A program made the translations under genes and the position numbers. A model generated the notes under the pieces. It saw only the letters and a list, made by a program, of their open reading frames with translations. It was not told the DNA's origin and searched no databases. Below, piece by piece: positions 1 to 29,923 of a stretch of DNA of 37,268 nt; within the stretch, counting starts at the first letter, position 1, and each line of letters begins with the position of its first letter. The stretch is from Escherichia phage PEC14. The DNA is taken from sequence record NC_073051.1; one strand, given 5' to 3'.

Positions 1-1042
1 TCATTGCTTCTCTTTCGATGCGGAAGGTGGTGAAGCCTCTAACCAGCGCAAAGAAGCATTGCAGATTAAATACGAGCACGACCTGGACAAGCTGCACATT
101 ATCGACCTGCAGTCTCGCGGCTGGGATATCACCAGCAAGTCCGGTTTGCGCGAAGTTATCAGCTTTATCAACCGCACCGCTAACGGCGAACCTGTTGGCC
201 TGGTGGCGTTCGACTCACTCAACCAGACTGTTGCGCTGCGGTCCGCCGATGCTAAACCGTTTGACGAGAACAACGCCAGCGATATGGGTGAAGTAGTCAA
301 AGCGCTGAAAGCCATTGCGGAAAACACGGGGGGCAGTGCGGGCGTCATCCACCACCCGGCGAAGGGTGCAAACGGCAGCAGAACCCCACGCGGATCCGGC
401 GCACTGCATGGCGCTGTCGATTCCGCTTTCTTCCTGGAACAGCCGGACGACAACCAACCAGGCCAATTGAACCTGTATCACGAAAAATCACGTAACGGTA
501 TCAAGCAAGCGCCGCGTGGCTTCGTCCTGCTCAAGTGCAAGGTGAAGGTGGATCTCCGCAAGTCAGAAGCGTTCGAGGCGCACCAGTCCACCAGCACCGG
601 TCCGGACTTCGGAGACGTAGTTGCCGGTTGGGACGTCAAACCAATTGCGTCCACCCCGCGCGACGAGACTTTATACCTCGTACCGGTCGCCCTGGCACCG
701 TTCGCTATAGAACAGGCGAAGGCCGCAGGAAAAGCCGCAGTTAAGGAAGAGAACACCGCCGGACCGCGCACCGAAAAAGAAAAGGTACTTTACGCGGCCC
801 TGGAAAAACTGATGGAAGATAACCCGGACCATACTGGTTTCAGTAAATCGGCAATTGTCCGCCAGGCTGGACTCGCGAAGGGTGGCACTTCGACGAAGGC
901 AATAGACGATATGGTCGAGCGCGGCGTGATTGGTTTCTATACAGACCCGCACACCGGGGCCATATATGGGTCATCGAATTTAGTCATTAAATCGGATATC
1001 CCCATTACACTTTCTGCGACCGATGACGACCTGAAAGATTAA
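1..1042 (+). CDS. replicative primase/helicase-type ATPase, C-terminal portion (gene begins upstream of window)
   Basis: Frame of track ORF 59..1042 stays open back to nt 2 with no stop; TTG at 59 is not a credible start. RecA-fold/AAA_25-like signature VIHHPAKGANGSRTPRGSGALHGAVD seen in translation. Confidence 0.5.
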   Translation, partial: HCFSFDAEGGEASNQRKEALQIKYEHDLDKLHIIDLQSRGWDITSKSGLREVISFINRTANGEPVGLVAFDSLNQTVALRSADAKPFDENNASDMGEVVKALKAIAENTGGSAGVIHHPAKGANGSRTPRGSGALHGAVDSAFFLEQPDDNQPGQLNLYHEKSRNGIKQAPRGFVLLKCKVKVDLRKSEAFEAHQSTSTGPDFGDVVAGWDVKPIASTPRDETLYLVPVALAPFAIEQAKAAGKAAVKEENTAGPRTEKEKVLYAALEKLMEDNPDHTGFSKSAIVRQAGLAKGGTSTKAIDDMVERGVIGFYTDPHTGAIYGSSNLVIKSDIPITLSATDDDLKD

Positions 1043-1052
1043 ATTTTGCGCG

Positions 1053-1116
1053 CATTGGTTGCCATTTTGAGTGTTTTTAGCCGGTCGCATTGGTTGCCGT
1101 GTAGTGTGAATATAAT
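1053..1116 (+). promoter_or_regulatory. two copies of CATTGGTTGCC (1053-1063, 1088-1098) followed by TATAAT at 1111-1116
   Basis: Motif read directly; belongs to the ATTGGTTGC family recurring in intergenic regions of this window. Confidence 0.35.
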
Positions 1117-1149
1117 GCATAGTTATGCAATAAAACTGCATAAAGTAAG

Positions 1150-1310
1150 CGGGACAAAAAGCGGGACAGACCAGGGGCGGGACAAAGCGGGACAGCACCC
1201 CTGTCCCGCCCCGGATGACGCGGCCTGGCGGGGAGCGGGACAGGCGGGACAAAGCCCAGTCTTTCAGACTAGACGGGGGTCATTGGCCCCCCTCGTCTGA
1301 GACTGAATAA
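1150..1310 (+). repeat. copy 1 of ~160-bp duplicated element: CGGGACA heptamer array (1150-1200), 35-bp divergent core, 75-bp conserved block (1236-1310) with long imperfect palindrome 1257-1305
   Basis: Direct comparison with 17710-17870: 51-bp block identical except one base, 75-bp block identical, spacing preserved. Confidence 0.85.
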
Positions 1311-1459
1311 AATCCGGGATTGCATAATACACGGCAGCACATTGGAAATCGCGGTCGTCGCTGAACTAGGCAACCAATGCGAGATGCAGAACGGGGTGTG
1401 AAAAATGCAGTTTGCAGTCACAGCAGATAGCGATCAACTTTTTCATGCGCATGATTAAT

Positions 1460-4326: not shown

Positions 4327-4387
4327 GCTTGACTCGCAACCAACATAGACGCCATACTGCGACCAATCAACGAGAGGAGTAATCAAG

Positions 4388-4468
4388 ATGGCACGTAAAG
4401 ATATTTGGGTATTAGCGATCTGGACCACCGCGGCTTTTATCGGCATGGTTATTTGCGAATTGATATAG
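4388..4468 (+). CDS. 26-aa hydrophobic peptide (MARKDIWVLAIWTTAAFIGMVICELI) with strong SD
   Basis: GAGGAG 8 nt upstream of ATG; single TM-like span. Confidence 0.3.
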   Translation: MARKDIWVLAIWTTAAFIGMVICELI

Positions 4469-4481
4469 CCCGCCGCCATAC

Positions 4482-4507
4482 GGACCGTGGTATATTGTCC
4501 ACGGTCC
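4482..4507. other. perfect 9-bp inverted repeat GGACCGTGG-N8-CCACGGTCC without T-tract
   Basis: Read directly; loop contains TGGTATATT. Confidence 0.6.
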
Positions 4508-4529
4508 ACTAATCAGGAATTAATTAAAT

Positions 4530-5672
4530 ATGCACCCGCAAACTAAAATTACCGATGAGCAATTGATCGCAGAAATTCAGGCAGGGACTACGGTTAAAGA
4601 GATTGCGAAGAAATACGGGATTGCCCTGCGCAATGTCTATATGCGCAAAGCCCGCCTGTCGAAAAAGGGAATTGGTCACGGCAATGATGCCGTGATCCGT
4701 AAGCGCGTTGCCGATGGTTTTGGGGTTAAGCGCGTATCGGCCCTGGTGCGCGGAAATGGCGAAGAGGTCATGTCGTGGGTCATCACTGAGCAGGACAAGG
4801 AGCGCCAACTCGAAGCTATGCGCGCTGTTGTCGAGGGTATGAACAGCGAAATCACACCGGCAGCGCCTGTAAACGCCCCGCCAGTACCGATCCAGGCGCT
4901 CGACTTGCTCAACCTGTACACCGTGTCAGACTTTCACCTGGGAATGCTGGCATGGGGTGAGGAGACTGGCGAAGACTGGGATATGGCGATCGCCGAAGAC
5001 TTGTTCTACCGCTGGTTTGTCGAAGCCTTCGCCCGCGCACCGGACGCAGGCACTGCCGTTATCAATATCCTCGGGGATATGGCCCACTTTGATAGCCTGG
5101 ATGCAGTCACCCCGGCAAGCGGTCACGTACTGGACGCCGACACCCGCTACCAGAAACTGGTCCGATACATGATTCGCATGGTGCGCAACGTCGTAGAACT
5201 TGCGCTGCAAAAACACCACAAAGTCAAACTGCTAATCGTCCAGGGTAATCATGACGAATCCGGTATGATTTGGCTTGCTGAGATGTTCAATACCTTGTAT
5301 GAGAACGAGCCGCGCGTCGATGTGGACACGTCCCCGGACGTCTACAAAATGGTGCAGCACGGTAAGACTACGCTATTTTTCCACCACGGGCACAAAGCGC
5401 GATTCGATGTTATCGAGCAGGTTATGATCGCTAAATTCAGACAGGCGTTCGGGTCGAGCGAATACAGCTACGCGCACGTAGGCCATTTGCACCACCAGAA
5501 GATTGTTGAATCCCGCAACATGATTGTTGAACAGCACCGGACGCTCGCAGCGAAAGACGCCTACGCCAGTCGTGGCGGTTGGATGTCTGGTCGCAGCGCC
5601 AACGTCATTACCTACAGCGCCAACTACGGCGAAGTAGCGCGCTTAACCATTAGCCCAGAAATGTTGAAGTAA
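4530..5672 (+). CDS. HTH domain fused to calcineurin-like metallophosphoesterase
   Basis: N-terminal helix-turn-helix-like segment (TVKEIAKKYGIALRNVYMRKARL); phosphoesterase motifs in order DFH, GDMAHFD, GNHDE, HHGH, GHLHH. Confidence 0.65.
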   Translation: MHPQTKITDEQLIAEIQAGTTVKEIAKKYGIALRNVYMRKARLSKKGIGHGNDAVIRKRVADGFGVKRVSALVRGNGEEVMSWVITEQDKERQLEAMRAVVEGMNSEITPAAPVNAPPVPIQALDLLNLYTVSDFHLGMLAWGEETGEDWDMAIAEDLFYRWFVEAFARAPDAGTAVINILGDMAHFDSLDAVTPASGHVLDADTRYQKLVRYMIRMVRNVVELALQKHHKVKLLIVQGNHDESGMIWLAEMFNTLYENEPRVDVDTSPDVYKMVQHGKTTLFFHHGHKARFDVIEQVMIAKFRQAFGSSEYSYAHVGHLHHQKIVESRNMIVEQHRTLAAKDAYASRGGWMSGRSANVITYSANYGEVARLTISPEMLK

Positions 5673-5732: not shown

Positions 5733-5802
5733 CCCCATTAGATGGCAGGGCCGTCTCCTATGTTGCCGATGGTCGGCGCATATGAACAAAAGGGCTTATA
5801 TC

Positions 5803-6354
5803 ATGGCAGAAATCAAAGTTAAGGGCCGACGCGCCAAACTGGACGGACGAGTCGCAGTTACCCCGCGCCGTAAACCCGGCGAGCAAACCGAGCATACCAA
5901 TCTCGGACCTGAAATCGAGTACGGAAAGCGCCGTAAAGGCGGCAAATGTGGACGCCCTACTGACTACCGATCCGTTTACTGCGACCAGCTTCGCCGCTAT
6001 TTTGCCGACGCCGACGCCTGGCAGGTCAACTACTCCGATAAAGGCGCTGCGCAAGTAATACCCCGCAACAAAATGCCAACCTTCGGTCGATTTGCCGCGG
6101 AAATCGGCGTGGGCGTAGCTTGCCTGTATCGCTGGGCGCGTGCGCATGAGGAGTTCGCTGAGGCGATGGCGGACGCAATGGAGTTACAAAAAACCTTCCT
6201 GATGGAAGCTGGTGGCGTAACCATCGCGGCGGGCTTCGCTACATTCCTGCTTAAAGCAAACCACGGCGTCCGCGACGATGTGCCGCTGGATGACGACGAA
6301 GATGATAACGGCGACGTCGTTGTGGAGCCTACCGGCAAAGGCCAGGGTGAATAA
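5803..6354 (+). CDS. terminase small subunit
   Basis: Directly upstream of, and overlapping, the large terminase start; HTH-like segment; acidic C-terminus. Start chosen at internal ATG (MAEIKVKG). Confidence 0.55.
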   Translation: MAEIKVKGRRAKLDGRVAVTPRRKPGEQTEHTNLGPEIEYGKRRKGGKCGRPTDYRSVYCDQLRRYFADADAWQVNYSDKGAAQVIPRNKMPTFGRFAAEIGVGVACLYRWARAHEEFAEAMADAMELQKTFLMEAGGVTIAAGFATFLLKANHGVRDDVPLDDDEDDNGDVVVEPTGKGQGE

Positions 6355-17235: not shown

Positions 17236-17549
17236 TTGAGGCGGCGCGGCGCTTTTATGGCCCGCCGCCACCCTCCGAAGATTTAGCCGCGAGTTTATGG
17301 GGCGCGACACCTGAAGACGTGTGTCCTCCCGTTGCGCTGTGGCCCGACAACGCGAAGGTAGTCGCAGTCTTCACAGATTGCTCCACGCAATGGCGTACCG
17401 GATTCGGGGGCGCATACGGCATCGACTACGGCGTACTGGAATGGCTATTTAAGATGCACGGCATCGAAAACGCGCAACGTGCGTTTAAAGATATCAAGCT
17501 AATGGAACGCGTTGCGCTGGATGAAATGGCGCGGCAGAACCCCGCATAA
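16873..17549 (+). CDS. predicted -1 frameshift fusion product of tail chaperone (G-T-like)
   Basis: -1 frame is open from the slip site 17226-17232 to stop at 17549 and contains track ORF 17319..17549. Confidence 0.5.
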
Positions 17550-17552
17550 CGA

Positions 17553-17870
17553 AGCGGGACAGGCGGGACGTCCCGTTTTGTCCCGCCACCATTAAACTGC
17601 ATATATACTCACTACCAGTGCATAAACTAAAAGCGGGACAGGGGTGCTGTCCCGATCTGTCCCGCCCCTTAAAAGTGAATAGCTAAGCGGTTTTTCTGCA
17701 TAAAACAAACGGGACAAAAAACGGGACAGACCAGGGGCGGGACAAAGCGGGACAGCACCCTGTCCCTGCCAGTGCTGCCGCGGGTTTTAGCCGATCGGGA
17801 CAGGCGGGACAAAGCCCAGTCTTTCAGACTAGACGGGGGTCATTGGCCCCCCTCGTCTGAGACTGAATAA
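17553..17870 (+). repeat. copy 2 of duplicated element plus extended CGGGACA heptamer array (direct and inverted copies) between chaperone and tape measure genes
   Basis: About 15 CGGGACA copies; 17710-17760 and 17796-17870 match 1150-1200 and 1236-1310. Confidence 0.85.
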
Positions 17871-17933
17871 GGTTTGTTTTAAATTCGCTGATACAATGAC
17901 CGACGGCAACTGCATAAAAAGGGGGACTGCATA

Positions 17934-20579
17934 ATGGCAGATCAGGCAGCGGGCATCACGCTCAAGGCGGACGTCGCGCAAATTAAAACGGCTAATACTG
18001 TGCTGGACACATTTGCGCAGAAATCCGAGAACACAGAACAGAAAGTAAAGAAATTAAACGACACCCTCGGCAAGTCGAAAAAGGTTACTGGCGACGCCGC
18101 TGGCGGAATGGAGAAGTTAGCGACTGAATCGCAGCGTGCCGCCGATGGCATGACGAAACAGGAGCGACTCGCCAGCCGATTAGGCATGTCTACCAAAAAC
18201 CTGGGATTCGCATCGCGGAACGCCGCATTCCAGTTGCAGGATATTGCGGTAACGCTTGAGATGGGTATGCCGGTCCACCGCGTTATGCTTCAGCAGCTAC
18301 CGCAGCTTACTGGGGCGTTTGGCGGACTTGGAAACACACTGCGATATGTTGCGGGCTTTCTCGGCCCAGTAGGGATCGGCCTTTCGGCATTAACGGCGAC
18401 GTTAGGCGTAGGGGTGGCAATTACGACCCGCGCAGAGAACCAGGTGGCGGCGCTTAATAAGACGCTGGCGCTATCCGGTAATATTTCAGGCCTCACAGCT
18501 AACCAGATCCTTGTGCTGTCCGAGAACGCCGAGCGCATGGGCGGGTCATTCCGCAAGACGCGTGACACAATCCAGGCGCTGGCGGCGGCGGGTGTGAAAG
18601 CGGGTGGTGACTTCGGCGCATTGGCTAAGGTAGTTAATGACTTTGCGAAGGTGTCCAGCCAGCCGATCGAGGATGTGGTAGCGGCGGTGGCGAAGCTGTC
18701 AACCGACCCCGTTGGCGGACTGCGTGCGCTGGCGGATAAGTATCACGTCGTAAACGAAGCGCAGATCCAGCAGGTACAGTCGCTCGTTGATACGGGTCGT
18801 GAGACAGACGCAGTTGCGTTGGCTAACAAAACAGCCGCGGCGTCGTTCACCAGCATGACCAATGAGATCAAGGCGAACATGGGTACGCTTGAGCGGTCGA
18901 TGAACGTCGTTACATCGGCAGCTAAGTCTATGTGGGATGCCATCCTGGATGTGGGCCGCGCGCAGTCCTCCAATGAGTCCGAGATGAAAGCGCGCGAATC
19001 ACTACAGCGCATGACCACGGCTTACTATGCCGAGATGAAAGCGGTAAACGCTGCCGGTGGAGTGATGACCGAAGCTCAGAAAGCGCGTATTAACATGCTT
19101 TATAGCGAACTGGTCGCCCAGGAGAAAGTAGTGGCGTCGCTCACCCTTCGTAACCGTGCGGAGCGAGACAACGCCCGCGCCGCAGACGAATCCGCAAAGG
19201 CGAACGAGGAGGCTAACCGCACCGCCCGCGACCGCGCTGCGTTCGAGAAGGAGTACGCAACTAACGCGAAGAAGCGCGCAGACGAGATAGCCCGCCTCAA
19301 TTTGCTGAATAAGCGCGGCGTTATTGACGAGAAAGAGCTTGCTGAGGCGGTTAAGCAGGTAAACGAGCGTTACAAAGACCCGGCCCCGAAGAAGGCCGCG
19401 GCTGTTCGCGTGGATGCCGGTATGAAAATGCTGGAAGTCGCACGGAGCGAACTGGCCCAGCTTCGAGAATCAGGCAAACAGATCGAAGCCAACGCATCGA
19501 CGCAGACCCGCACGCAACGCGCTCAAGCGGCCCTAAACAAGCTGATCGCCGACAATGAGCAGTTAATCGCTGCGAGCAAAGAAAGAGCGCTAACGGCAGC
19601 CGAAAAGCAGCAGATGGTGGAATTTGGACGCGTGAAGGAAGTGCGCGAGCAGATCGTCGAAGAAGCCAAATTGCTGGACGCGAAAGAGAAGCAGGTTAAG
19701 GCGCACGCGCAGATCGATGCCTTCGTTAAGAACCAGAACGCCGAACTAAAAGCCACCGCGGCGGGCTATGCGCTTTCCACTCGCGAAGCGGCAAACCTGC
19801 GCGAAGAATTGCAGCTAATCGACCGTCTGAAGAGGGTTGGCGCTAACGATACCGATATAGACAAGGCGGTGTCTAAGCTGCGGGAAGTGCAGGAGGCGCA
19901 GACCGGCGCTAACGCCTCGCTATGGGATGGATTCAGTCGCGGGCTTAAGGATAGCGTGGATGAGATGGGTAACGGATATACGCAGATGACGTCACTCACA
20001 AAATTCACGTTCAGCGCTATGCAGGACACGATGAACGAGTTTTTCGAGACGGGCAAGATTAACGCGAAGGATATGGTCAAATCCATCCTGAGCGAGTTAA
20101 TCAAGCTGGCTACCTCGCAGGCGTTCAAGTCGATTGTTAGCGCTTTCGGTGGTGACGGCGGCAAAAACGGATTGTTCGGCGCTATCTTCTCGGGCCTCAC
20201 TAAGAATGCGGACGGCGGAGCGTACGCAGGAGGCAATCTGGCGGCCTATTCGGGGAAAGTGGTAAGCCAGCCTACCTTTTTCAGTTATGGCGTCCAGGCG
20301 TTCGCTAAGGGCGCAGGATTGATGGGTGAGGCCGGTCCCGAGGCCATCATGCCTCTGAAGCGCGGGCCGGACGGGAAACTGGGCGTTGCCGCTTCGGGTG
20401 CTGGCGGCGGTGGTATGGTCGTGACGACTAACGTTTACACGGGGACTGGTAAAACGGATACCAGTGTCAGCGGGCCGGACCCCCGTACCGCGCAGGCGTT
20501 CGGCAAGCAAATCACCGAGGCGGTGAAGGCTGAGATCGTGAAAGCGACGAAACCGGGTGGTGTACTTTACAAACGATGA
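17934..20579 (+). CDS. tape measure protein
   Basis: 881 aa, Ala/Gln/Lys-rich helical repeats with Gly-rich C-terminal region; directly after chaperone/frameshift gene. Confidence 0.85.
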   Translation: MADQAAGITLKADVAQIKTANTVLDTFAQKSENTEQKVKKLNDTLGKSKKVTGDAAGGMEKLATESQRAADGMTKQERLASRLGMSTKNLGFASRNAAFQLQDIAVTLEMGMPVHRVMLQQLPQLTGAFGGLGNTLRYVAGFLGPVGIGLSALTATLGVGVAITTRAENQVAALNKTLALSGNISGLTANQILVLSENAERMGGSFRKTRDTIQALAAAGVKAGGDFGALAKVVNDFAKVSSQPIEDVVAAVAKLSTDPVGGLRALADKYHVVNEAQIQQVQSLVDTGRETDAVALANKTAAASFTSMTNEIKANMGTLERSMNVVTSAAKSMWDAILDVGRAQSSNESEMKARESLQRMTTAYYAEMKAVNAAGGVMTEAQKARINMLYSELVAQEKVVASLTLRNRAERDNARAADESAKANEEANRTARDRAAFEKEYATNAKKRADEIARLNLLNKRGVIDEKELAEAVKQVNERYKDPAPKKAAAVRVDAGMKMLEVARSELAQLRESGKQIEANASTQTRTQRAQAALNKLIADNEQLIAASKERALTAAEKQQMVEFGRVKEVREQIVEEAKLLDAKEKQVKAHAQIDAFVKNQNAELKATAAGYALSTREAANLREELQLIDRLKRVGANDTDIDKAVSKLREVQEAQTGANASLWDGFSRGLKDSVDEMGNGYTQMTSLTKFTFSAMQDTMNEFFETGKINAKDMVKSILSELIKLATSQAFKSIVSAFGGDGGKNGLFGAIFSGLTKNADGGAYAGGNLAAYSGKVVSQPTFFSYGVQAFAKGAGLMGEAGPEAIMPLKRGPDGKLGVAASGAGGGGMVVTTNVYTGTGKTDTSVSGPDPRTAQAFGKQITEAVKAEIVKATKPGGVLYKR

Positions 20580-28090: not shown

Positions 28091-29923
28091 ATGGCAGCGG
28101 GTACACTATCCGTAACGAATAACAGCAAGGCGGTTGTCGGGGTAGGCACGACGTTTACCGCGGTTAAAGCCGGAGACTTCTTATCGCTGGTAGTGGGGCA
28201 AGTACCCTACACTGTTGCGATCGCGTCCGTAGAAAGCGACACCGCGATTACGCTTGTGCTGCCGTTCGACGGACCCACGGCAACTGGCCTCGCGTGGGAT
28301 GGCGTTAAGCGCGATACCATGTCGCTGGCAACGATGGGCGTAACAGTACAGGCGCAGAAAGCGTTGCGCTTGATGATCGCGGACGAAAACAACTGGCGCG
28401 CAATCTTCGGAGACGAGGAAGAAATCGCGGTAACGCTGCCGAACGGGCAAGTTATGCAGGGTATGTCGTGGGGCTATCTGTCGCAATTGCTGAAGGAAGT
28501 TGACCCCGTTGAAATGCGCAACCTGCAACAACAAGCCGCGGCATCTGAAGCAGCAGCGCTGGTATCGCGTAATGAGGCCGAAGGCTTCAAGAACGATACC
28601 AATACCATCAAGACGCAGACCAACCAGATTAAGGCAGATACGCAGGCTATCCGCGACGCCACCAATACCATCAAGACGCAGACCAACAAGATTAAGGCAG
28701 ATACGCAGGCCATCAAAGACCAGACGAACCAGATCAAGACTGACACCGGCGTTATGAGGGACCAGGCCAACGCTGCGAAGACTGACGCGCAAGCTGCCAG
28801 CGCAGCCGCGCAGGGATTCCGCGATCAGGCCGAGGAGTGGGCGCAAAGCGTTAACGCGGATAACCTGCTAACAAAATCCGGCAACCTGGCAGGGCTTGCG
28901 GATAAATCGGCGTCGTGGAAGAACCTTATGCCTGCGGGGCCGCTGCGAATTGGGGCGCACCCCGTTGCGGACCTGGATGCCGCGACCCGGAAATGGACGC
29001 TGGAGCGTTTTACCAAAGGCGTGGCGGAGTCGTCGTGGACTGTCAGGAAAACCGTCACCACCACACCACAGAACGGCACTGTCGTCCGTGGCGGTGAGGT
29101 GGAATCGAGATATTCCAACCCAACATCTACGCAGTTCGCCCGTCTGTACTCAAGCTCTGTATTTGGTTCTTCTAACGCGGCTGTTGTTGAGGCAGAGGGT
29201 TCTTCCAGGCACGCTTATAAATTCTATGAGGATGGCACAGTTGACTTCCGACAGTCAGGGAAGACCAACCCATTCCGCATGTATACAAATATTGGAACAT
29301 GGAATGGCATAACGGACGCCACGGCATCCAACTTGACAACTAACGGAATGGACAGGGTGGCCATTTCGAGCGGCTCAGATACTCTGGTGCACGGATATTC
29401 TATCGGCGGCACCAAACCTAATGGATATCCAACAAAGGTTGGATATCACATGTATATTCCAGGCAATAATGCATTTGGTATTGCTTGCATGGTAATCGGT
29501 GGGGATAACGGAAAATTTTGCCGTTACTTTTTTGACATTGATGGTCTAATATATGGTTCGACCGATTACGGGAACTTCAGTTATATGAAAAATGGCACTT
29601 CTGACTTACGTGTAAAACACGGCATCGCCCATGTTGGAGTTGACAAATCATACTCTAATATTAAAGGGCTGGAATTTGTAGAGTTCATTTATGATAATGA
29701 CGAACAAAATCGAGTTCGGCATGGCGTGATTGCACAGCAAGCAGAGGTTGTTGAGCCTTTATATGTCAAGACGCGCAAATATGTTGGCAATAATCCAGGA
29801 GAGATTGTGGAGCAGAAGGAACTGGACACTACGCCGATGCTTCTGGATACCATGCATGTTGTGCAGACGTTGATGCAGAAGATCGAGGCTATGGAGGCCG
29901 AGATCGCGGCGCTGAAGAAATGA
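28091..29923 (+). CDS. side tail fibre with C-terminal intramolecular chaperone (peptidase S74-like) domain
   Basis: Start at ATG 28091 with GAGGA SD; heptad-like repeat shaft; C-terminal SDLRVKHGI...coiled-coil ending typical of self-cleaving chaperone domains. Confidence 0.75.
   Translation: MAAGTLSVTNNSKAVVGVGTTFTAVKAGDFLSLVVGQVPYTVAIASVESDTAITLVLPFDGPTATGLAWDGVKRDTMSLATMGVTVQAQKALRLMIADENNWRAIFGDEEEIAVTLPNGQVMQGMSWGYLSQLLKEVDPVEMRNLQQQAAASEAAALVSRNEAEGFKNDTNTIKTQTNQIKADTQAIRDATNTIKTQTNKIKADTQAIKDQTNQIKTDTGVMRDQANAAKTDAQAASAAAQGFRDQAEEWAQSVNADNLLTKSGNLAGLADKSASWKNLMPAGPLRIGAHPVADLDAATRKWTLERFTKGVAESSWTVRKTVTTTPQNGTVVRGGEVESRYSNPTSTQFARLYSSSVFGSSNAAVVEAEGSSRHAYKFYEDGTVDFRQSGKTNPFRMYTNIGTWNGITDATASNLTTNGMDRVAISSGSDTLVHGYSIGGTKPNGYPTKVGYHMYIPGNNAFGIACMVIGGDNGKFCRYFFDIDGLIYGSTDYGNFSYMKNGTSDLRVKHGIAHVGVDKSYSNIKGLEFVEFIYDNDEQNRVRHGVIAQQAEVVEPLYVKTRKYVGNNPGEIVEQKELDTTPMLLDTMHVVQTLMQKIEAMEAEIAALKK
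28598..28723 (+). repeat. in-frame 63-bp tandem duplication in fibre shaft
   Basis: Two adjacent near-identical 63-bp units encoding TNTIKTQTN(Q/K)IKADTQAI... Confidence 0.7.

What the first reader, a model, noticed from the sequence alone, without database searches (positions are those of the whole stretch)
17553..17870. CGGGACA heptamer array with embedded hairpins in a 380-bp non-coding gap inside the tail operon
Between the chaperone frameshift ORF (ends 17549) and the tape measure start (17934) lies a non-coding stretch with about 15 copies of CGGGACA in direct and inverted orientation, at roughly 10-16 bp spacing. Several pairs form hairpins (cgggacgtcccg at 17565-17576 is a perfect 12-bp palindrome; GGGACAG-gggtg-CTGTCCC; GGGACAG-cacc-CTGTCCC). 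A large non-coding insert between the chaperone and tape measure genes is atypical for siphovirus tail operons. The layout fits either a binding array for a dimeric DNA-binding protein (iterons: origin, partition-like or packaging site) or a structured RNA.
Basis: seen in the sequence. Interest (0 to 1): 0.75.

Follow-up and report, generated by a model that had tools for sequence, protein, structure and literature searches.

The report
Second replication-origin repeat module in phage
The CGGGACA repeat cluster inside the tail genes of this E. coli phage is most likely a second copy of its replication origin, bound by the phage's own helicase-primase; this is a familiar kind of element, here in an unusual place.

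Summary
The window is a circular permutation of the lytic Dhillonvirus Escherichia phage PEC9. The 384-bp gap between tail chaperone and tape measure holds 11 exact and 3 near copies of CGGGACA, about 0.05 expected.

Its 3' half (17676-17870) duplicates a block at 1116-1310, which lies directly after the helicase-primase gene.

Related phages (Dhillonvirus, Eiauvirus, Guernseyvirinae-like contigs) carry the same module after that gene: 3-4 direct repeats, one inverted, a spacer, two tandem repeats, then a long three-tier hairpin. Site positions are conserved but the repeat word changes by lineage (CGGGACA, CGGACAA, TCCGACA, GGGATAA, GGGGATG, GGGGAGA, ACTCGCAA, CGCCCCG).

The word tracks the hypervariable C-terminal domain of the helicase-primase, modelled as a winged helix, not the neighbouring small HTH protein. 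A repeat word predicted from that domain was then found.

Best reading (about 0.55): an iteron-type origin module for a self-loading initiator helicase, as in SaPI Rep, P4 alpha and pRN1. The tail-operon copy would be a second origin or a crr-like enhancer.

Rivals: an upstream regulatory array for a conserved promoter-like site before the tape measure gene, or an RNA processing or termination hairpin.

The repeats are already flagged in the Sodalis phage SO-1 GenBank record. Nothing has been tested experimentally.

The parts
17552..17587 (+). Repeat unit U1: CGGGACA (17555), CGGGAC|GTCCCG palindrome (17564-17575), TTTT, inverted GTCCCG/TGTCCCG (17579-17585)
   Evidence: (family D4). HK578 GenBank annotates the palindrome plus T4 as a rho-independent terminator, but the scan found no + strand terminator here.
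17588..17630 (.). AT-rich spacer 1 with TGCATA(T/A) boxes (17598, 17619)
   Evidence: 40-nt windows reach 68% A+T against a genome mean of 45.6%. Sequence varies among Dhillonviruses except the TGCATA boxes.
17631..17666 (+). Repeat unit U2, a paralogue of U1: CGGGACA (17634), inverted copies at 17648-17654 and 17658-17664
   Evidence: 83% identical to U1. In several genomes U2 is an exact copy of U1, which suggests gene conversion.
17667..17709 (.). AT-rich spacer 2 with the GAATAG (17677) and TGCATAA (17697) boxes that precede the array in all lineages
   Evidence: 70% A+T. The same boxes precede the arrays in the other lineages.
17710..17766 (+). Core array: four direct CGGGACA (17710, 17722, 17738, 17748; spacings 12/16/10) and one degenerate inverted copy (17760-17766)
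   Evidence: The direct copies are nearly invariant in 15 Dhillonviruses (pairwise diversity 0-0.035); the inverted copy is less so (0.16).
17767..17795 (.). G+C-rich spacer between the two halves of the array
   Evidence: A spacer of equivalent length (about 30-40 nt) occurs in all lineages.
17796..17811 (+). Two tandem direct CGGGACA copies abutting the hairpin
   Evidence: sites at about -20 and -10 from the hairpin start in most lineages.
17817..17865 (+). Three-tier imperfect hairpin (outer AGTCT/AGACT, middle stem, apical G-run/C-run stem); no T tract follows
   Evidence: dG -28.4 kcal/mol, z -3.95 to -5.4. Stem diversity is 0.018 and loop diversity 0.217 within the genus. The same fold with different stem sequences occurs in 11 lineages.
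17889..17897 (+). Promoter-like extended -10 element TGATACAAT upstream of the tape measure gene
   Evidence: Read from the sequence. Invariant in 15 Dhillonviruses and followed by a variable hexamer. The strict sigma-70 scan did not call it because there is no -35.
17903..17933 (+). Conserved leader: ACGGCAAC box, two TGCATAA boxes, Shine-Dalgarno AAGGGGG, then the tape measure ATG at 17934
   Evidence: An ACGGCA(G/A)C box also follows the hairpin in region B and in other lineages.
1116..1310 (+). Region B: paralogous copy of the module (array 1150-1251, hairpin 1257-1305), directly 3' of the helicase-primase gene
   Evidence: The site grammar is identical to region A.
773..970 (+). Codons for the predicted winged-helix domain at the C terminus of the helicase-primase (gene ends at 1042); proposed binder of the heptamers

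Best explanation
The CGGGACA array is a cluster of iterons, binding sites on double-stranded DNA for the C-terminal winged-helix domain of the phage's own helicase-primase (PEC9 gp56, HK578 gp46). The primary module lies directly after that gene (window 1116-1310). The tail-operon locus (17550-17870) is a second, enlarged copy. Inferred mechanism: helicase-primase subunits dock on the phased direct repeats and oligomerise. The flanking A+T-rich DNA and/or the long inverted repeat then opens. The RepA-like helicase loads itself and the primase domain starts synthesis. The second copy would act either as an independent origin or as a cis-acting partner of the first, like crr of phage P4. Shown here: the repeats, their conservation, the conserved site grammar, the hairpin, and the co-variation with the winged-helix domain. 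Inferred: binding, melting, priming and any origin activity.
For: (1) There are only two clusters in the 44-kb genome, one directly 3' of the helicase-primase gene. By contrast, a different motif, TTGGTTGC, is spread over many intergenic regions.
(2) The same module follows the helicase-primase gene in Eiauvirus, phiEap-2, VLCpiS11a and many IMG/VR contigs. Site positions relative to the hairpin are conserved (about -105, -93, -77, inverted -52 to -65, -20, -10), but the repeat words differ.
(3) The word follows the C-terminal domain, not the rest of the protein. L040 vs L042: core 99%, C-terminal domain 52%, words differ. L042 vs L035: core 75%, domain 71%, same word. P0002 vs P0006 (a near-identical sister of P0007): core 94%, domain 46%; the arrays, read on contigs encoding P0002 and P0007, differ.
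(4) A prediction made from domain similarity (P0007 should carry CGGACAA) was confirmed.
(5) The small HTH protein encoded upstream does not co-vary. phiEap-2 and L045 have near-identical XRE proteins but different words.
(7) Within Dhillonvirus the heptamer columns are far more conserved than the spacers (0.086 vs 0.220, permutation p<1e-4). Inverted partners decay without compensation, as expected for protein sites and not RNA helices.
(8) A+T-rich stretches (68-72%) flank the arrays.
(9) Precedents: SaPI Rep and SCCmec Cch2 bind iterons just 3' of their genes through a C-terminal domain (PMC7581432). P4 alpha uses a C-terminal winged helix (PMC4889955). pRN1 uses a long stem-loop 3' of its replication gene (PMC4234260). 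HK578 escapers from OLD map to gp46 and its promoter (bioRxiv 10.64898/2026.07.10.737580).
Against: There are no binding, replication or transcript data for this phage group.
The structural model rests on 7 sequences (mean pLDDT 50; block means 61-78 in the domain), and the Foldseek matches were not significant (E >= 0.35).
The C-terminal codons and the array are physically adjacent, so recombination would move them together whatever their function.
The spacer inside the array is G+C-rich, so a classical unwinding element is not inside it.
Region A lies just upstream of a conserved promoter-like element, which also fits a regulatory role.
Guernseyvirinae-like relatives have no region A, so the tail-operon copy is not needed by this replicon type in general.
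GC skew follows gene orientation and says nothing about an origin.
Confidence: 0.55

Rival explanations
1. The array is a transcriptional control region. A phage protein, possibly the same winged-helix domain, binds it to switch or insulate the promoter just downstream (TGATACAAT before the tape measure gene; a sigma-70-type promoter after region B). This would time late or tail gene expression, perhaps coupling it to replication.
For: In both regions and in all lineages a promoter-like element follows the module. Examples are TTGACA-17-TATTGT in L035, TTGCAC-17-TATTGT in phiEap-2, and the invariant TGATACAAT at 17889-17897. The module sits at operon boundaries. Rep proteins of iteron plasmids also autoregulate (general knowledge).
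Against: The sites lie 80-330 bp upstream of the promoter-like element and are separated from it by a strong hairpin, which is unusual for an activator or operator. The genome already has a different, widely distributed intergenic motif (TTGGTTGC, 18 copies), and boxes of this type sit next to the promoter-like sites. That motif is a better candidate for the operator of the small HTH protein. The repeat word follows the helicase-primase domain, not the small HTH protein.
Confidence: 0.2
2. The functional part is RNA. The long hairpin is a processing or stabilising site (RNase III-type) or an atypical terminator at the end of the upstream transcript, and the heptamers are part of a structured untranslated region.
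For: The hairpin is very stable and structurally conserved, with different stem sequences in 11 lineages. It lies at the 3' end of the helicase-primase operon and between tail genes. In Guernseyvirinae-like lineages a T-rich TTATTCATT follows it.
Against: No Rfam family matches, and the best matches are microRNA-type hairpin noise well below threshold. No T tract follows the hairpin in this phage, and no + strand terminator was called. The heptamer inverted repeats lose pairing without compensation (L053, L054). The + strand copies are conserved as words rather than as pairs. An RNA model does not explain why the word tracks a winged-helix domain.
Confidence: 0.15
3. The arrays are packaging (pac) or partition-type sites bound by the small terminase or a centromere-binding protein.
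For: Arrays of short repeats are typical of terminase-binding and centromere sites (general knowledge). Several GenBank records start or end inside region A or just after region B: eiAU, UAE_MI-01, CHD5UKE2 and phiEap-2.
Against: The small terminase is P22 gp3-like (Pfam GP3_package, E 1.3e-4, below the family cut-off), and its gene is about 11 kb from region A and 4.6 kb from region B. Record ends inside a duplicated block are what assemblers produce at repeats. No ParA/ParB-type genes are annotated in this lytic phage. The word follows the helicase-primase domain.
Confidence: 0.05

Closest known systems
SaPI Rep / ori (staphylococcal pathogenicity islands) and SCCmec Cch2
   Same: An initiator helicase recognises short repeated iterons lying directly downstream of its own gene through its C-terminal domain (PMC7581432). 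Initiator and origin specificity are matched.
   Different: Those helicases are of a different superfamily (SF3/D5-like or DUF927); here the core is AAA_25/RepA-like. Here the module also has a long three-tier hairpin and exists in two copies, one inside the tail operon. Binding is untested.
Phage P4 alpha protein with ori and crr
   Same: A primase-helicase fusion has a C-terminal winged-helix origin-binding domain (PMC4889955, PMC4234260). From my own knowledge, not checked here: P4 needs two separated cis regions, ori and crr, both carrying the same octamer repeats in direct and inverted orientation.
   Different: P4 alpha is DnaG-type primase plus SF3 helicase. No sequence similarity to a P4 alpha chain appeared in the PDB sequence searches. 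Whether region A is required in cis like crr is unknown.
pRN1 ORF904 replicon (and Bordetella phage BIP-1)
   Same: The operon encodes a small DNA-binding protein plus a primase-helicase with a C-terminal winged helix. The origin lies directly 3' of the gene and needs a long stem-loop (PMC4234260).
   Different: pRN1 has no iterons and uses an SF3 helicase. Here iterons and a stem-loop occur together.
RSF1010 oriV (RepC iterons, RepA helicase, ssiA/ssiB hairpins)
   Same: A RepA-family helicase core (AAA_25; a very weak, non-significant PDB sequence match to RSF1010 RepA, E 0.53). Iterons sit next to stem-loops that serve as priming signals (as summarised in PMC4234260).
   Different: In RSF1010 three separate proteins do the work. 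Here one polypeptide would carry the binding, helicase and primase functions.

Membership tests
Iteron-type origin recognised by a self-loading initiator helicase (SaPI Rep, P4 alpha, Cch2 type) | Cluster of short repeats in direct (and inverted) orientation, far above chance | tested here: met
   21 vs 5.45 expected in the window, 18 of them in two clusters. Phased spacings of 12/16/10.
Iteron-type origin recognised by a self-loading initiator helicase (SaPI Rep, P4 alpha, Cch2 type) | Location adjacent to (directly 3' of) the initiator gene | tested here: inconclusive
   Met for the paralogous region B (1116-1310, gene ends at 1042) and in all relatives. Not met for the finding itself, which is 16.5 kb away in the tail operon, comparable to P4 crr.
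Iteron-type origin recognised by a self-loading initiator helicase (SaPI Rep, P4 alpha, Cch2 type) | Initiator carries a sequence-specific DNA-binding domain | tested here: inconclusive
Iteron-type origin recognised by a self-loading initiator helicase (SaPI Rep, P4 alpha, Cch2 type) | Repeat sequence and binding domain change together (matched specificity) | tested here: met
   There are two independent cases where the helicase core is 94-99% identical but both the domain and the repeat word differ, and one prediction was confirmed. Caveat: the two are physically linked.
Iteron-type origin recognised by a self-loading initiator helicase (SaPI Rep, P4 alpha, Cch2 type) | A+T-rich unwinding region next to the repeats | tested here: inconclusive
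   68-72% A+T in 40-nt windows beside the arrays vs a 45.6% genome mean, but the spacer inside the array is G+C-rich.
Iteron-type origin recognised by a self-loading initiator helicase (SaPI Rep, P4 alpha, Cch2 type) | Protein binding in vitro and origin activity in vivo | not testable with these tools
   No experimental data were found in the literature searches.
Intrinsic (rho-independent) terminator | G+C-rich hairpin immediately followed by a T/U tract on the transcribed strand | tested here: not met
   No + strand terminator was called in 17300-18100 or 900-1700. The hairpin is followed by GAATAAGG (region A) or GAATAAAA (region B).
Described structured RNA family (Rfam 15) | Match at or above a family's gathering score | tested here: not met
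   No match in the whole window at gathering thresholds. Only sub-threshold microRNA-type hairpin hits in the region.
Packaging (pac) site | Lies in or next to the small terminase gene, and packaging series start there | tested here: not met
   The small terminase gene is at record 4362-4934 (window 5782-6354), far from both arrays. Termini could not be tested without reads.
Plasmid-type partition centromere | Accompanied by ParA/ParB-type (or ParM/ParR) genes | tested here: inconclusive
   None is annotated among the 56 genes of PEC9. Only 10 proteins were scanned against Pfam. The phage is virulent.

The most novel reading that the evidence does not exclude
The tail-operon copy is not a redundant origin but a replication-transcription coupling device. 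Helicase-primase assembled on region A would open the DNA at the hairpin and so license the adjacent promoter-like site for the tape measure and distal tail genes, making late tail gene dosage depend on active replication. The same exposed hairpins would be what host sensors such as OLD or Lamassu detect in Dhillonviruses. A self-loading SF4 (RepA-like) primase-helicase with a swappable 'winged helix plus iteron plus hairpin' specificity cassette would itself be a replicon type not yet described.
Probability: 0.12. Interest if true: 0.75.

Novelty: new member of a known kind. Interest (0 to 1): 0.45.

Why it matters
Dhillonviruses (HK578, the BASEL phages and many therapeutic isolates) are widely used, yet I found no report that maps their replication origin. 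This analysis gives a concrete, testable pair: the last ~110 residues of the helicase-primase and the CGGGACA module. It also gives a natural set of specificity variants in related phages for swap experiments.

It explains an unusual 384-bp gap in an otherwise compact tail operon. It also suggests why assemblies of these phages often break there, since the block is duplicated.

It offers a candidate for the replication-associated DNA structures proposed to trigger the OLD defence. HK578 escape mutations map to this helicase-primase and its promoter.

For engineering, deleting or moving region A should be done with care.

Tried and rejected
- **Rfam and tRNA scans:** nothing.
- **GC skew as an origin marker:** the cumulative curve simply follows gene orientation, so it is uninformative.
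- **MAFFT/RNAalifold on hairpins from 11 lineages:** the alignment was not structural and gave only 3 pairs. I replaced it with individual folds.
- **PDB sequence searches** with the helicase-primase and with its C terminus: no useful match.
- **Foldseek against PDB:** winged-helix hits only, none significant.
- **The search for homologous proteins:** returned only 7 relatives, so the structural model is shallow.
- **Region A against 5,426 E. coli genomes and 72,556 plasmids:** no match, so no satellite or plasmid borrowing these iterons was found.
- **Literature:** searches for a mapped origin in Dhillonvirus, SO-1 or Guernseyvirinae found none. The full text of the SO-1 GenBank note ('possible ...') could not be read because the tool truncates it.
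- **CsrA-sponge small RNA (GGA motifs):** considered and dropped. The invariant word is a heptamer that changes completely between lineages, and no promoter was evident.
- **Small ORFs in the gap:** dropped because of frame-breaking indels.
- **The small HTH protein as binder:** rejected as the specificity determinant.
- **DnaA-box likeness of the TTATGCA boxes:** only 7 of 9 positions match, so not pursued.

Full report
**What the window is.** The window is a circular permutation of Escherichia phage PEC9 (ON548431.1), a virulent siphovirus of the genus Dhillonvirus, at 99.9-100% identity. Window position equals record position plus 1420. The region of the finding is conserved across the genus. 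Of 157 phage records with a match, 149 cover at least 80% of it, at about 79-100% identity.

**Checking the observation.**
- The chaperone ORF ends at 17549 and the tape measure ORF starts at 17934, leaving a 384-bp gap.
- CGGGACA occurs 21 times in the window against 5.45 expected, and no shuffle of 100 reached 21.
- Eleven exact copies lie in 17555-17811, eight on the + strand and three on the - strand.
- Counting the two six-base cores of the palindrome CGGGACGTCCCG (17564-17575) and a 6/7 inverted copy at 17760-17766 gives 14 sites.
- Seven more exact copies lie at 1150-1251. Only three of the 21 are outside these two clusters.
- In the whole 44-kb genome there is no third cluster.
- The gap is not coding, because single-base indels occur among 16 Dhillonvirus versions.

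The 3' half of the gap (17676-17870) is one of two copies of a 195-nt block. The other is at 1116-1310, with 84% identity ungapped and 89% by BLAST. That second copy begins 74 nt after the stop codon of the helicase-primase gene, which ends at 1042. Both copies end in the same strong imperfect hairpin, at 17817-17865 and 1257-1305. Its free energy is -28.4 kcal/mol and its z-score -3.95 to -5.4.

No T tract follows the hairpin, and the terminator scan calls nothing on the + strand. The 5' half of the gap adds two further 36-nt units that are paralogues of each other (17552-17587 and 17631-17666). They are separated by A+T-rich spacers.

The GenBank record of Sodalis phage SO-1 already marks both loci as 'region A' and 'region B'. 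Its note reads 'direct, inverted and palindromic repeat sequences ... possible ...', and the tool truncates the rest. HK578 annotates the palindrome plus TTTT as a terminator.

**Conservation pattern within the genus.** I aligned region A from 15 complete Dhillonvirus copies.

| Column class | Pairwise diversity |
|---|---|
| Heptamer columns | 0.086 |
| Spacers | 0.220 (permutation p<1e-4 vs heptamers) |
| Neighbouring coding sequence | about 0.10-0.12 |
| + strand heptamer copies | 0-0.04 |
| Inverted heptamer copies | 0.14-0.26 |
| Hairpin stems | 0.018 |
| Hairpin loop | 0.217 |

In some genomes the inverted partner has decayed with no compensating change, for example GGGACAGCACCCCCGCCCC in L053 and L054. 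That is how protein-binding words behave, not RNA helices. The large hairpin is the opposite case: its stems are nearly invariant and its loop drifts freely.

**The module is much older than the genus, and its word changes.** The gap after the helicase-primase gene is present in:
- Edwardsiella phage eiAU;
- Enterobacter phage phiEap-2;
- Klebsiella phage VLCpiS11a;
- most of the 37 IMG/VR loci;
- five further contigs.

Six of the 37 IMG/VR loci (L031-L034, L036, L038) showed no evident array downstream of the gene and were not followed up.

The layout is the same in the lineages that carry the module. GAATAGTTATGCA-type boxes come first. Then come three or four direct repeats, one inverted repeat, a 30-40-nt spacer and two tandem repeats. 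A three-tier hairpin follows, then a TGCATAA...ACGGCA(G/A)C box, and then a sigma-70-type promoter for the next operon.

Site positions relative to the hairpin are conserved, at about -105, -93, -77, (-68), inverted at -52 to -65, then -20 and -10. The repeat word differs by lineage:

| Lineage | Repeat word |
|---|---|
| Dhillonvirus, including a 68%-identity relative (L022) | CGGGACA |
| phiEap-2, L039-41, L093/94 | CGGACAA |
| L035, L042 | TCCGACA |
| L037, L092 | GGGATAA / AGGGAT |
| L045 | GGGGATG |
| L091, L095 | GGGGAGA |
| VLCpiS11a group | ACTCGCAA |
| eiAU | CGCCCCG |

The hairpin keeps the same three-tier fold in 11 lineages, with free energies of -21 to -33 kcal/mol and z-scores of -2.4 to -6.4. 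Its stem sequences differ between lineages, so the structure itself is under selection.

phiEap-2 and VLCpiS11a have no gap between chaperone and tape measure. eiAU does have one. Region A is therefore a second copy specific to the Dhillonvirus-Eiauvirus branch.

**Which protein reads the word?** The helicase-primase is 754 aa with an AAA_25/RepA-like core and belongs to PHROG 'replicative helicase-primase'. It is 45-49% identical across four genera, except for its last ~80-100 residues before a conserved acidic tail. Those residues are hypervariable.

The repeat word follows this domain and not the rest of the protein:

| Comparison | Helicase core identity | C-terminal domain identity | Repeat words |
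|---|---|---|---|
| L040 vs L042 | 99% | 52% | differ |
| L042 vs L035 | 75% | 71% | same |
| P0002 vs P0006 (a near-identical sister of P0007) | 94% | 46% | differ (arrays read on the contigs encoding P0002 and P0007) |

From domain similarity alone (62% to phiEap-2, measured on P0006) I predicted that the P0007 contigs would carry CGGACAA. They do, with 6-7 copies.

The small HTH protein encoded just upstream is excluded as the specificity determinant. phiEap-2 and L045 have near-identical XRE proteins but different words. L042 has an unrelated upstream ORF yet the same word as L035.

One caveat applies. The domain codons and the array are neighbours on the DNA. Nucleotide identity between swapped pairs drops at about -340 nt from the stop codon. 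It recovers briefly over the conserved boxes (+5 to +45), drops again over array and hairpin, and recovers at about +255-275. Linkage alone could therefore produce the co-variation.

**A separate regulatory motif.** TTGGTTGC occurs 18 times in the PEC9 genome, mostly in intergenic regions. Its counterparts (GCAACCAAC in eiAU, TGTTGGCTG in the phiEap-2 group) sit next to the promoter-like sites. It is the more plausible general transcription signal or operator. CGGGACA, by contrast, is confined to two loci, which argues against a general transcription role.

**Interpretation.** The best-supported reading is an iteron-type replication origin module for a self-loading initiator helicase, with region A as a second copy. 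The precedents are close:
- SaPI Rep and SCCmec Cch2 bind iterons directly 3' of their genes through a C-terminal domain (PMC7581432).
- P4 alpha binds origin repeats through a C-terminal winged helix (PMC4889955, PMC4234260).
- From my own knowledge, P4 needs a second distant repeat region, crr.
- pRN1 needs a long stem-loop 3' of its primase-helicase gene and has a small repressor in the same operon (PMC4234260).
- RSF1010 combines iterons, a RepA helicase and priming hairpins (PMC4234260).
- In HK578, mutants that escape the OLD defence map to this helicase-primase and to its operon promoter. The authors read this as a link to replication initiation, but they did not map the origin (bioRxiv 10.64898/2026.07.10.737580).

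**What remains open.** Binding, melting, priming and origin activity are all inferred. A regulatory role for region A cannot be excluded. An invariant extended -10-like TGATACAAT (17889-17897) sits 24 nt after the hairpin, followed by a variable hexamer and a conserved leader. The hairpin could equally act in RNA as a processing or stabilising site. A packaging or partition role is unlikely. I rate the origin/iteron reading at about 0.55, regulation at about 0.2, RNA at about 0.15 and packaging or partition at about 0.05.

**Novelty and score.** The repeats were already noticed in a database record, and the kind of system is well known. What appears new is threefold:
- the assignment to the helicase-primase winged helix;
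- the exchangeable 'domain plus iterons plus hairpin' pattern across genera;
- the recognition that the tail-operon gap is a duplicated copy of it.

I file it as a new member of a known kind, with moderate interest of 0.45.

Noticed in passing
window 1055-1062, 1090-1097, 1370-1377 (-), 1461-1468, 1492-1499; also about 2025, 4336, 11954/11968, 28066, 31146/31158, 33060/33077, 36034: A second short motif, TTGGTTGC (often CATTGGTTGC), occurs 18 times in the PEC9 genome, mostly in intergenic regions. Its counterparts in relatives (GCAACCAAC in eiAU, TGTTGGCTG in the phiEap-2 group) sit next to promoter-like sites. It is probably a phage promoter element or the operator of the small HTH protein.
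   Followed up: partly
window 17889-17897: TGATACAAT, an extended -10-type promoter-like element, is invariant in 15 Dhillonviruses, 37 nt upstream of the tape measure start. This suggests the distal tail genes can be transcribed on their own.
   Followed up: partly
L040 (phiEap-2), L035, L042, L092, L045: apical loop of the hairpin after the helicase-primase gene: In several non-Dhillonvirus lineages the hairpin's apical loop carries an inverted copy of that lineage's own repeat word (for example TGTCCG, TGTCGG, ATCCCT, ATCCCC). The PEC9 hairpin loop does not.
   Followed up: no
L006 (eiAU) 42365-42718, inside its chaperone-tape measure gap: eiAU's version of region A is about 1.1 kb and contains an annotated minus-strand ORF, possibly an inserted mobile gene. 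The linear GenBank record also starts and ends inside this gap, 74 nt after the hairpin.
   Followed up: no
window 28593-28760: Tandem 63-nt repeats (89% identical, with a third degenerate copy) lie inside a long + strand ORF (PEC9_34, SO-1 'tail fiber protein'). This looks like a coding repeat in a fibre-like protein.
   Followed up: no
several phage records (UAE_MI-01, CHD5UKE2, EcoIv6a_Kente, PNS1, Sponge, welsh): Many Dhillonvirus GenBank records begin or end inside region A. The likely cause is that the 195-nt duplication breaks assemblies there, rather than true genome ends.
   Followed up: no
window 2-1042 / L003 7738-10002: The helicase-primase ends in a conserved acidic tail (SATDDDLKD) after the variable domain. 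This is reminiscent of the acidic C-terminal tails that mediate replisome contacts in T7-type systems (my own knowledge).
   Followed up: no
L031-L034, L036, L038 (IMG/VR loci): Six related loci show no evident repeat array downstream of the helicase-primase gene. L031 instead has a terminator-like hairpin followed by reverse-strand sequence. Their arrays, if any, may lie elsewhere.
   Followed up: no
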